From Escherichia coli (GTDB lineage: Bacteria; Pseudomonadota; Gammaproteobacteria; Enterobacterales; Enterobacteriaceae), in the NCBI RefSeq assembly GCF_003018255.1, contig NZ_CP027440.1: a stretch of DNA of 64,000 nucleotides. One strand, 5' to 3'. This document shows, one piece after another, positions 1-30,634 of the stretch. Within the stretch, counting starts at the first letter, position 1. Each line of letters opens with the position of its first letter. The notes beneath the pieces were generated by a model. That model saw nothing but the letters and a program-made list of their open reading frames with translations. It searched no databases and had not been told where the DNA came from. The translations under genes were made by a program, and so were the position numbers.

Positions 1-402
1 TGGCGACATCCATGCATGGGGGTTAGGTTTGCCCTCATAGGGGCCTTCGGTGATCCCTACTGGCGTCACACCCGAAGAGACAATTACTTCTGGAACCCCA
101 TTGAGATGCTGGTAAAAGCGTTGGAACCACAATTCCAGATTCATACCATTGGCGAGGATCAGTTGTGCCCCCTGCGCACGTTTAATATCGCCAGGGGTAG
201 GCTGATACTCATGAATTTCTGCACCGGGCTTGGTTATGGATGAGACTTCTGCAGCATCTCCAGCCACGTTTTTGGCCATATCCGCGATGATGGTAAATGT
301 TGTAATGACCTTGAATTTTTCAGTTGCACTTGCCTGAAATGCGATCGAGCAGGTGAGGGCGAGGCACCCCAAGAGCATGGTTACTTTTTTTATTGAGTGC
401 AT
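1..402 (-). CDS. sitA: Periplasmic metal-binding protein of a Mn/Fe ABC transporter, N-terminal 134 codons; the gene runs off the left edge of the window
   Basis: Hand translation of the minus strand from ATG at 400-402: MHSIKKVTMLLGCLALTCSIAFQASATEKFKVITTFTIIADMAKNVAGDAAEVSSITKPGAEIHEYQPTPGDIKRAQG..., a signal peptide followed by sequence resembling SitA/ZnuA-family binding proteins as I remember them. Open to position 1. Confidence 0.7.
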   Translation of the reverse strand, partial: MHSIKKVTMLLGCLALTCSIAFQASATEKFKVITTFTIIADMAKNVAGDAAEVSSITKPGAEIHEYQPTPGDIKRAQGAQLILANGMNLELWFQRFYQHLNGVPEVIVSSGVTPVGITEGPYEGKPNPHAWMSP

Positions 403-434
403 AATTTAGTACCTATAGTGAGCAAAATTAGAAC

Positions 435-456
435 AAACATAGCAACGGCTATGTTT
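435..456. promoter_or_regulatory. Candidate MntR box: perfect inverted repeat AAACATAGC-AACG-GCTATGTTT, 33-54 bp upstream of the sitA start
   Basis: Palindrome read directly; it matches the E. coli MntR operator consensus as I recall it (AAACATAGCnnnnGCTATGTTT). Confidence 0.6.
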
Positions 457-477
457 TATAGCACAACCTATACAAAA

Positions 478-497
478 TGAAAATGATTATCATTAAC
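478..497. promoter_or_regulatory. Candidate Fur box (TGAAAATGATTATCATTAAC)
   Basis: Core AATGATTATCATT is one mismatch from the Fur consensus core AATGATAATCATT; lies in the sitA upstream region. Confidence 0.5.
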
Positions 498-953
498 AAC
501 TTTGTGGCCCAAAACAGGGATTAGGTTGTTTCCTGCTGGCGACATGGTATTGAGGAAAAAAGCAGGGCAGCTATTAGGCTTTGAAATGACTTTATGAGGA
601 AAATTTTTGATGGCAAAAATGGGGCAAAACGCTGTAGAAGGGGCAAAAAAGGGGCAAAAAAAGAGTGGATTATCGTAGCTTATTGTTGTCGCTGATAATG
701 TTTAACATATTGAAAAATAAATAAAATACTTATGAGTCAGATAGTTGTGATTTTTGCCCTTACTTGTTCAGGTTGTATTGTTCTTTCTTACTAATTTCTT
801 GATTTTGCGACATTTAAAAGCGACTCAATTCGTTATATGGCATCAGAAGAGTATGCGTCATGCCGGAACGCCCAGCATAAGAAATCTGATATAAAAACTG
901 TGGCGTGTATGGTACGGATTAGAGGGGAAAATGTCAGCACATTTGCGAAATGA

Positions 954-2697: not shown

Positions 2698-2924
2698 TGA
2701 ATAAATCCTTTAGTTATTTTATTTGCCTTTTATCCCCATTTCGGGGAGTGAAAACATCCTAAAGGAGAAGTTCAGTTAGCCGATAAATATCATTTGTTAC
2801 GCCTTAAGTAAAACCTTAATCAAATAATTCTACGGAAATGATAATAAGTCTGGTGAATGTATTGAAGATAATACATACAAAATAAAAATTATACTTTTAA
2901 TTTGCTATACGTTATTCTGCGCGG

Positions 2925-3033
2925 GTTATATGCCTTTATTGTCACAGATTTTATTTTCTGTTGGGCCATTGCATTGCTACTGATTTTCCAACATATAAAA
3001 AGACAAGCCCGAACAGTCGTCCGGGCTTTTTTT
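2925..3033 (+). ncRNA. micC: MicC small regulatory RNA, including its intrinsic terminator
   Basis: Sequence GTTATATGCCTTTATTGTCACAGATTTTATTTTCTGTTGGGCCATTGCATTGC...AAGCCCGAACAGTCGTCCGGGCTTTTTTTT matches remembered MicC; located between ompN and ydbK as in K-12. Confidence 0.85.
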
Positions 3034-3062
3034 TAGAATTGGATAATCCTTATCCAGTGCAT

Positions 3063-29607: not shown

Positions 29608-29671
29608 AAGAAAACGCCTGTACTAAAACCGACCCGTGGTACAGGCGAAGAATACGGGTCTACATCGGAAG
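29608..29671 (-). ncRNA. rydC: RydC small RNA (about 64 nt)
   Basis: Minus-strand sequence CTTCCGATGTAGACCCGTATTCTTCGCCTGTACCACGGGTCGGTTTTAGTACAGGCGTTTTCTT matches remembered RydC; cybB-ydcA intergenic position as in K-12. Confidence 0.8.
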
Positions 29672-30086: not shown

Positions 30087-30294
<208 letters not shown>

Positions 30295-30634
30295 TCGTTG
30301 GCCTCGGTTGATAGAAATATCGGTCGGGGCCTTCGTCTTTCTGATTCCCGGTTAGCCTGAAAACAGAAAGTCTCAGGCACCCGCAGGCATCCTATGAGGT
30401 TTCCTTAGGGACGAAAATAATCACTTTACGAAATTGCGTGCTGTTTTCCAGAATTTTTCGTCATTCGGGTTAGCCAGTTTAGCCATTCGTTACTCTCTTC
30501 ATTCCAATAGCATTAATTTTCTCTGCAATAATTGTTGTAAAAATGTGACGCAAAGAGGTTTTTGGTCATAAGTAATTACCGTCAAGTGCCGATGACTTTC
30601 TATCAGGAGTAAACCTGGACGAGAGACAACGGTA

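What the first reader, a model, noticed from the sequence alone, without database searches (positions are those of the whole stretch)
403..520. sitA promoter with adjacent MntR-box and Fur-box palindromes at the left edge
The window opens inside a sitA-like gene (minus strand, start at 402), placing a sit-type Mn/Fe uptake locus next to uspF-ompN where K-12 has Rac prophage genes. A perfect 9-4-9 palindrome AAACATAGC-AACG-GCTATGTTT (435-456) matches the MntR operator consensus, and TGAAAATGATTATCATTAAC (478-497) is a near-consensus Fur box, consistent with dual Mn/Fe control as described for sit operons.
Basis: partly seen in the sequence, partly recalled or inferred. Interest (0 to 1): 0.5.

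Follow-up and report, generated by a model that had tools for sequence, protein, structure and literature searches.

The report
sitA promoter: Fur and MntR operators
This is the ordinary, already-described control region of the E. coli sitABCD manganese/iron uptake operon, carrying an iron-repressor (Fur) site and a manganese-repressor (MntR) site; the only addition is a conserved second, weaker MntR site next to the first.

Summary
Window 1-402 (minus strand) is the 5' part of sitA. In matching E. coli genomes sitBCD continue to the left. A perfect 9-4-9 palindrome lies at 435-456, and a 17/19 match to the Fur-box consensus lies at 479-497.

The palindrome half-sites are identical to those in the E. 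coli K-12 mntH promoter. Across 100,044 species genomes, every Enterobacteriaceae copy of the exact palindrome sits directly upstream of mntH or sitA.

Held reviews and a 2022 Salmonella study describe dual Fe-Fur / Mn-MntR repression of sitABCD in Salmonella and Shigella. This promoter occurs in 2,355 of 5,426 complete E. coli genomes. It is therefore already known, and interest is low.

- Both cores, at exactly this spacing, are the only invariant blocks in 11 diverged sitA promoters.
- The spacing equals that of the paired sites of E. coli mntS and of the cooperative MntR array of B. subtilis mneP.
- With the Fur box, the sites cover the predicted promoter from about -49 to +16.

No binding or expression was tested here.

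The parts
1..402 (-). 5' part of sitA (134 codons), the periplasmic Mn/Fe-binding protein of the sitABCD ABC importer. The rest of the operon lies left of the window.
   Evidence: Translation. Annotated SitA in 100%-identical genomes, with sitB, sitC and sitD following. Homologues carry Pfam PF01297.
411..415 (-). Weak Shine-Dalgarno (AGG within TAGGT), 9 nt before the ATG. It aligns with AGGAG in other genera.
   Evidence: Read; inference.
435..456 (.). Proximal MntR operator: the perfect 9-4-9 palindrome AAACATAGC-AACG-GCTATGTTT (18-bp frame 437-454, centre 445.5). It spans the predicted transcription start.
   Evidence: Half-sites identical to those of K-12 mntH. Rank 1 of 63,983 positions with an independent PWM. 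Core ATAG/GCTA invariant in 11 promoters.
456..473 (.). Distal, degenerate MntR-type site (core 458-471, ATAGC-ACAA-CCTAT, centre 464.5), 19 bp centre to centre from the proximal site. It lies over the predicted spacer and -10.
   Evidence: rank 3 of 63,983. Core invariant and spacing exactly 19 in 11 sitA promoters. Same spacing in K-12 mntS and B. subtilis mneP (PMC11275975).
455..463 (-). Predicted extended -10, TGcTATAAA (reads 463->455 on the sitA strand).
   Evidence: Read. TGnTATA(A/T/C)(A/G) is conserved in 8 of 11 promoters. Not reported by the scan tool, because its rule needs T at position 6. Inference; no mapped start site.
478..483 (-). Predicted -35, TTTTCA (4/6 to TTGACA), 17 nt upstream of the -10, inside the 3' end of the Fur box.
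   Evidence: Read; inference.
478..498 (.). Fur box: 19-mer at 479-497 (17/19 to consensus on the minus strand), made of two overlapping 7-1-7 motifs at 478-492 and 484-498.
   Evidence: AATGATAAT(C/T)ATTT(T/G)CATTT is conserved in 10 of 11 sitA promoters.
447..450 (-). Predicted transcription start region, about 7 nt after the -10, giving a 5' UTR of about 46-48 nt.
   Evidence: Inference from the -10 position only.
403..603 (-). The whole sit-specific upstream region. From 604 rightward the sequence is collinear with the right end of K-12 Rac, then ttcC and uspF.
   Evidence: blastn against K-12. Boundary sequences. The alleles in alignment A1 diverge beyond about 610.

Best explanation
Window 403-520 is the promoter-operator region of sitABCD, read on the minus strand.

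Inferred layout: RNA polymerase uses a -35 TTTTCA (483-478) and an extended -10 TGcTATAAA (463-455), and starts near 449.

Inferred mechanism:
- When iron is plentiful, Fe-Fur binds the Fur box (497-479) over the -35.
- When manganese is plentiful, Mn-MntR dimers bind the perfect palindrome (456-435) over the start site.
- Probably cooperatively, MntR also binds a second, weaker site (473-456) over the spacer and -10.
- Together the sites occlude the promoter from about -49 to +16, so the importer is made only when Fe and Mn are scarce.

Shown here: the sequence features, their statistical rarity, their identity to K-12 mntH half-sites, their conservation and fixed spacing in other genera, and the presence of mntR in the species.

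Inferred: the promoter hexamers, the start site, occupancy of each site and cooperativity.

From literature: Fur/MntR repression of sitABCD in Salmonella and Shigella.
For: - Features and chance expectation.
- K-12 mntH carries AAACATAGC-AAAG-GCTATGTTT preceded by a Fur-like box, in the same order.
- Scan of 100,044 species genomes: all of the roughly 40 Enterobacteriaceae occurrences of the exact palindrome lie just upstream of mntH (36) or sitA (4).
- In 11 sitA promoters from 10 genera, the only invariant blocks are two ATAG(C)-N4-G(C)TA cores exactly 19 bp apart, plus the Fur box in 10 of 11.
- A PWM built only from K-12 mntH, mntS and mntP sites ranks the two window sites 1st and 3rd of 63,983 positions.
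- mntS has the same 19-bp pairing. PMC11275975 reports 18-bp MntR sites separated by 1 bp in B. subtilis mneP, and says the mntS spacing is identical.
- mntR is present in 5,421 of 5,426 E. coli genomes.
- Literature: PMC3852070, PMC8970401, PMC9315381.
Against: - No binding, footprint, start-site or expression data for this strain were available.
- The primary papers (Ikeda 2005, Runyen-Janecky 2006, Patzer & Hantke 2001, Waters 2011) are not held, so I could not compare the window with the bases that were mutated or footprinted.
- The consensus promoter scan did not call the promoter.
- The distal site alone, allowing 1 mismatch in a 10-base core, is not rare: 1.6 such matches are expected per 64 kb. 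Its support rests on position and conservation.
- Part of the distal site's conservation could reflect the -10 element rather than MntR.
Confidence: 0.9

Rival explanations
1. Only the perfect palindrome is an MntR operator. The distal ATAGC-N4-CCTAT element is conserved because it contains the -10 hexamer, or is bound by another factor, not because a second MntR dimer binds there.
For: The right half of the distal core (GCTATAAA) coincides with the predicted extended -10. A core match with 1 mismatch is not rare by chance. Held reviews mention MntR, Fur and OxyR 'elements' without saying there are two MntR sites.
Against: The left half (ATAG at 471-468) is also invariant in all 11 promoters, although it lies in the promoter spacer where no polymerase contact is expected. 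In Enterobacter, Cedecea and Dryocola the distal site is the perfect 9-4-9 palindrome and the proximal one is degenerate. The 19-bp spacing equals that of the mntS and mneP paired sites. PWM rank is 3 of 63,983.
Confidence: 0.25
2. The palindrome acts as an RNA hairpin in the sitA leader (an attenuator or terminator-like element) rather than as a protein-binding site.
For: The terminator scan lists it on the minus strand: a 9-bp stem with 3 G-C pairs, followed by GTTCTAATTT.
Against: The hairpin is weak (-9.8 kcal/mol). The leader's fold is not better than shuffles (z = -1.07; 24 of 200 shuffles fold as well). There is no Rfam match in 403-988. Across genera the core bases are invariant rather than covarying, and the outer arms (AAAC/GTTT) are not kept as pairs. 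The predicted start lies inside the palindrome, so the full hairpin would not be transcribed. PMC9315381 states that sitABCD has no riboswitch-like leader.
Confidence: 0.03
3. The tandem ATAG...CTAT elements form an OxyR site (four ATAG-type elements), giving peroxide induction as at mntH.
For: The OxyR consensus also contains ATAG/CTAT elements. A review says an OxyR element is present in the Salmonella sitABCD promoter.
Against: The best match to ATAGnTnnnAnCTAT-N7-ATAGnTnnnAnCTAT in 403-640 is 11 of 20 specified bases, a score reached by several hundred positions in the window. The element spacing here is 10/9/10, against 11/11/11 in the OxyR consensus.
Confidence: 0.03

Closest known systems
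sitABCD promoter of Salmonella enterica serovar Typhimurium (SPI-1) and of Shigella flexneri, with dual repression by Mn-MntR and Fe-Fur (Ikeda et al. 2005; Runyen-Janecky et al. 2006, as cited in PMC3852070, PMC8970401 and PMC9315381)
   Same: Same operon, with putative MntR and Fur sites in the promoter. Repression by Mn through MntR and by Fe through Fur is reported. Shigella sit is the E. coli-type locus.
   Different: I could not read those papers or fetch the Salmonella promoter, so base-by-base correspondence was not checked. Held reviews do not mention a paired MntR site, and they mention an OxyR element that I could not detect here.
E. coli K-12 mntH promoter (Patzer & Hantke 2001, cited in PMC3852070)
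   Same: Identical half-sites AAACATAGC / GCTATGTTT with a 4-bp spacer. A Fur-like box lies upstream of the MntR box, and both are close to the start codon.
   Different: mntH shows no second palindrome at 19 bp, only an extra CATAGC half-site. Its spacer is AAAG rather than CGTT. mntH is a core gene, whereas sit is accessory (43% of genomes).
Paired MntR sites of E. coli mntS (rybA) and the cooperative MntR array of B. subtilis mneP (PMC11275975)
   Same: 18-bp sites separated by 1 bp, that is 19 bp centre to centre, overlapping the promoter.
   Different: At mneP four weak sites activate transcription. Here two sites, one perfect and one weak, are placed to repress. Cooperativity at sitA is inferred only.
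Yersinia yfeABCD (sit homologue)
   Same: Homologous Mn/Fe ABC importer, repressed by Fur (PMC3852070).
   Different: Yersinia lacks MntR, and Fur mediates both the Fe and the Mn response (PMC3852070). The window has MntR-type operators. The yfe promoter was not examined here.

Membership tests
Enterobacterial MntR (DtxR-family) operator | Inverted repeat with half-site AAACATAGC (core ATAGC-N4-GCTAT) | tested here: met
   Perfect match at 435-456. Half-sites identical to the K-12 mntH site. Top PWM score in the window.
Enterobacterial MntR (DtxR-family) operator | Located in or over the core promoter of a manganese-homeostasis gene | tested here: met
   The site lies 33-54 nt upstream of the sitA ATG. 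In other Enterobacteriaceae the exact palindrome occurs only upstream of mntH or sitA. Overlap with the -10 and +1 is inferred from predicted hexamers.
Enterobacterial MntR (DtxR-family) operator | Cognate regulator gene present in the organism | tested here: met
   mntR is present in 5,421 of 5,426 complete E. coli genomes. It is not in the window itself.
Enterobacterial MntR (DtxR-family) operator | Mn2+-dependent binding of MntR and Mn-dependent repression | not testable with these tools
   Only literature for Salmonella and Shigella sit.
Paired / cooperative MntR array | Two or more 18-bp sites separated by 1 bp (19 bp centre to centre) | tested here: met
   Sites at 437-454 and 456-473. 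Spacing is exactly 19 in 11 of 11 sitA promoters. The same holds in mntS. Geometry is described in PMC11275975.
Paired / cooperative MntR array | Cooperative occupancy by two dimers | not testable with these tools
   Needs EMSA, mass photometry or footprinting.
Fur box | Match to the 19-bp consensus GATAATGATAATCATTATC, or to overlapping 7-1-7 motifs | tested here: met
   17/19 at 497-479, with 0.02 expected by chance. 7-1-7 motifs with 1 and 2 mismatches, offset by 6 bp.
Fur box | Position overlapping promoter elements, and conservation in orthologous promoters | tested here: met
   Overlaps the predicted -35. Conserved in 10 of 11 sitA promoters and absent in Pantoea agglomerans.
Fur box | Fe2+-Fur binding and iron repression | not testable with these tools
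   Literature only.
SitABCD / YfeABCD Mn-Fe ABC importer operon | Substrate-binding protein (ZnuA-like, PF01297) followed by an ATPase and two permeases | tested here: met
   Only the sitA 5' part is in the window. sitB, sitC and sitD follow in the identical locus L001. PF01297 is found on homologues.
OxyR binding site | Match to ATAGnTnnnAnCTAT-N7-ATAGnTnnnAnCTAT | tested here: not met
   The best match is 11 of 20 specified bases, which is background level.
Intrinsic terminator / leader hairpin | Stable G+C-rich hairpin followed by a T-run; structure conserved through covariation | tested here: not met
   -9.8 kcal/mol with z = -1.07. Poor T-run. Invariant bases rather than covarying pairs.

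The most novel reading that the evidence does not exclude
The sitA promoter of Enterobacterales carries a conserved two-site MntR array, with 18-bp sites 1 bp apart. This is the same geometry as the cooperative MntR arrays of B. subtilis mneP/mneS and of E. coli mntS. Which of the two sites is the high-affinity perfect palindrome has swapped between lineages: proximal in E. coli, distal in Enterobacter, Cedecea and Dryocola. If two dimers bind cooperatively, sit repression would respond more steeply to Mn than mntH, which has one site. I found no mention of a paired site at sitA in the held literature, but it may already be listed in regulon databases that I could not consult.
Probability: 0.6. 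Interest if true: 0.3.

Novelty: already known. Interest (0 to 1): 0.12.

Why it matters
sitABCD is a widespread accessory Mn/Fe importer linked to virulence in extraintestinal E. coli, Shigella and Salmonella. Its control by Fur and MntR explains why it is switched on under host metal restriction. All of that is established, so this finding adds only a correct annotation of the control region in this window. The small extra, a conserved paired MntR operator with the same spacing as known cooperative MntR arrays, would give a simple, testable reason for a steeper Mn response at sit than at mntH. It is an incremental point.

Tried and rejected
- Reading the primary papers (PMC545731, PMC1539580, PMC99535, PMC2681762, PMC3194919): none is held. 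The published operator sequences and mutated bases could therefore not be compared.
- Full-text search for the half-site string AAACATAGC returned only unrelated papers.
- The consensus promoter scan did not call the sitA promoter. I placed the -35 and -10 by eye and by conservation.
- RNA hairpin or terminator reading: rejected.
- OxyR site: rejected at consensus level.
- mntH was checked for a second palindrome 19 bp away and has none (read).
- Non-enterobacterial hits of the palindrome scan (AT-rich Clostridia, cyanobacteria, a MAG with six copies) have no SitA, MntH, MntS, MntP or MntR neighbour. I treated them as chance or unrelated repeats.
- The Salmonella SPI-1 sitA promoter could not be fetched.
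- No target-site duplication or terminal repeats were found at the edges of the 3.8-kb sit cassette.

Full report
**1. Observation**

- The complement of 400-402 is ATG. The frame 402->1 translates without stops to MHSIKKVTMLLGCLALTCSIAFQASATEKF....
- A 1,000-base query from the left edge is 100% identical to E. coli chromosomes in which this frame is annotated sitA and the next gene to the right is uspF.
- In one such genome (locus L001), sitB, sitC and sitD follow sitA to the left.
- The palindrome AAACATAGC-AACG-GCTATGTTT at 435-456 has two 9-nt arms that are 100% complementary.
- It is the only match in the 64-kb window to AAACATAGCN4GCTATGTTT, even allowing three mismatches. Chance expectation is 0.04.
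- The Fur-like element reads GTTAATGATAATCATTTTC on the sitA sense strand (497-479). That is 17/19 to the classical consensus, with 0.02 matches at <=3 mismatches expected per window.
- It can also be read as two 7-1-7 motifs offset by 6 bp, at 478-492 and 484-498.

**2. What the palindrome is**

I could not read the papers that defined the MntR box, so I compared the site with E. coli's own MntR-controlled promoters.
- The K-12 mntH promoter carries AAACATAGC-AAAG-GCTATGTTT, with exactly the same half-sites. A Fur-like GATAATCATTCTC element precedes it, giving the same order of elements as here.
- The mntP upstream region has two degenerate copies.
- A scan of one genome from each of 100,044 species for the exact palindrome gave 87 loci.
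- tblastn with SitA, SitB, MntH, MntS, MntR and MntP showed that every Enterobacteriaceae hit lies immediately upstream of mntH (36 loci) or sitA (4 loci: E. coli, Enterobacter sp. R1, Cedecea, Dryocola).
- The remaining hits are in AT-rich or unrelated genomes with no such neighbour.
- mntR itself is present in 5,421 of 5,426 complete E. coli genomes.
- Held literature states that MntR-Mn represses mntH and sitABCD, and that Fur represses both (PMC3852070; PMC8970401; PMC9315381).

**3. A second MntR-type site**

I aligned the window with sitA promoters from more distant genera. These were three loci from the palindrome scan and six fetched through SitA homologues of about 80% identity: Yokenella, Pluralibacter, Lelliottia, Pantoea, Izhakiella and Erwinia. 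The result is a clean phylogenetic footprint.
- Flanks and spacers vary.
- Two cores are invariant in all 11 sequences: ATAG(C)-N4-G(C)TAT and ATAG(C)-N4-GCTA. Their starts are exactly 19 bp apart in every case.
- The distal core is ATAGC-ACAA-CCTAT at 458-471 (centre 464.5).
- In Enterobacter, Cedecea and Dryocola the roles are swapped. The distal site is the perfect 9-4-9 palindrome and the proximal one is degenerate.
- A position weight matrix built only from K-12 mntH, mntS and mntP sites ranks window 437-454 first (21.1 bits) and 456-473 third (11.0 bits) of 63,983 positions.
- Taken alone, the distal core with one mismatch is not statistically rare. Its support comes from position and conservation.
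- The K-12 mntS promoter has the same arrangement: TTAGC-AATA-GCTAT and ATAGC-CTGT-GCTAT, with centres 19 bp apart.
- A cryo-EM study of B. subtilis MntR reports 18-bp sites separated by 1 bp in the cooperative mneP array. It notes that the mntS sites have identical spacing (PMC11275975).

The sitA promoter therefore fits the geometry of a two-dimer MntR array.

**4. Promoter and mechanism**

The following is inferred, not measured.
- On the sitA strand the sequence reads ...GTTAATGATAATCATTTTCATTTTGTATAGGTTGTGCTATAAAACATAGCCGTTGCTATGTTTGTTC...ATG.
- TGcTATAAA (463-455) is a good extended -10.
- The form TGnTATA(A/T/C)(A/G) is conserved in 8 of the 11 promoters.
- TTTTCA (483-478) lies 17 nt upstream, as a -35.
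- The scan tool missed this pair because it requires T at the last -10 position.
- With a start near 449, the Fur box covers about -49 to -30, the distal MntR site about -25 to -8, and the proximal palindrome about -7 to +15.
- Either metal-loaded repressor would block polymerase. This fits the reported dual repression.

**5. Rivals**

- RNA hairpin or terminator. The terminator scan lists the palindrome. Against this: the hairpin is weak, the leader folds no better than shuffles (z = -1.07), no Rfam family matches 403-988, and the conserved bases are invariant rather than covarying.
- OxyR. The consensus shares ATAG/CTAT elements, but it is matched at only 11 of 20 specified positions, which is background level.
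- Distal site conserved only as the -10. This is not excluded, but its left half lies in the spacer and is equally invariant.

**6. Context**

- This promoter occurs in 2,355 of 5,426 complete E. coli genomes, at 1,680 chromosomal and 1,059 plasmid places.
- It also occurs on 1,030 plasmid records, including Klebsiella, Salmonella and Shigella.
- Both boxes are conserved among the alleles.
- The common ColV-type plasmid allele has one change in the palindrome (ATAGT).
- Compared with K-12, the sit cassette is a 3.8-kb block lying within the right end of a Rac-type prophage remnant. It runs from 161 bp beyond sitD to 201 bp upstream of sitA.
- From window 604 onward the sequence is 98.6% identical to the last ~160 bp of K-12 Rac, then ttcC and uspF.
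- The sitA-uspF adjacency seen here is present in 501 genomes.

**7. Verdict**

It describes a known, common regulatory region, so it scores low. The paired MntR operator is a modest addition that may or may not be recorded elsewhere.

Noticed in passing
window 456-473 (core 458-471): A second, degenerate MntR-type palindrome lies 19 bp centre to centre from the perfect one. It is invariant in 11 sitA promoters and has the same spacing as the mntS and B. subtilis mneP paired sites.
   Followed up: yes
L026 6408-6460, L028 6410-6462, L048 535-587: In Enterobacter sp. R1, Cedecea and Dryocola sitA promoters the distal site is the perfect 9-4-9 palindrome and the proximal site is degenerate. This is the reverse of E. 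coli.
   Followed up: partly
L102 about 620-660 (Pantoea agglomerans sitA upstream): This sitA promoter keeps both MntR-type cores but has no recognisable Fur box at the aligned position.
   Followed up: no
L009 and L010 (ColV-type plasmid sitA promoters), aligned to window 446-448: The commonest plasmid allele (about 87.8% identity class, roughly 1,000 plasmids) reads AAACATAGTAGTTGCTATGTTT. That is one mismatch in the inner half-site, so its palindrome is imperfect.
   Followed up: no
window 603/604; L001 4792-8603: Relative to K-12, sitABCD with 201 bp of upstream and 161 bp of downstream sequence is a 3.8-kb block. It replaces about 34 bp inside the right end of a Rac-type prophage, between a terminator-like hairpin and the GGCAAAA repeats. 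No target duplication or terminal repeats were found.
   Followed up: partly
window 612-659: Four GGGGCAAAA / GGCAAAAA direct repeats (18-nt unit repeated at 30-nt spacing). They belong to the last ~160 bp of Rac and are also present in K-12, next to attR/ttcC. They may be recombinase arm-type sites; function was not examined.
   Followed up: partly
window 693-707: A weak Fur-like 7-1-7 match (TGATAATGTTTAACA, 2 mismatches) lies in the Rac-end / uspF-proximal intergenic region, and a promoter-like hit overlaps it.
   Followed up: no
window about 12386: Compared with strain 41 and K-12, the window lacks about 17.7 kb spanning feaR, feaB, tynA and paaZ through most of paaX. ydbL is joined to the 3' end of paaX and to paaY.
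   Followed up: no
window about 14617-15177 and about 41383: Further differences from strain 41: about 1 kb is missing within ydbD, and the IS200/IS605 tnpA-insQ (TnpB) element (about 1.7 kb) between ydcL and ydcO is absent.
   Followed up: no
window 2922-3042 (+), 29608-29671 (-), 30231-30382 (-): Rfam gathering-score matches to MicC, RydC and sok (the sokB antitoxin RNA next to hokB), all at their expected E. coli positions.
   Followed up: no
L058-L063 (one MAG, 'Bacterium isolate P11BWT0bin.6', GC about 62%): Six contigs each carry AAACATAGCCGTAGCTATGTTT or its complement, several near contig ends. No Mn-related gene was detected nearby, so this looks like a dispersed repeat unrelated to MntR. 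Two other MAGs (Saprospiraceae, Nitrospiria) have 2-3 copies.
   Followed up: no
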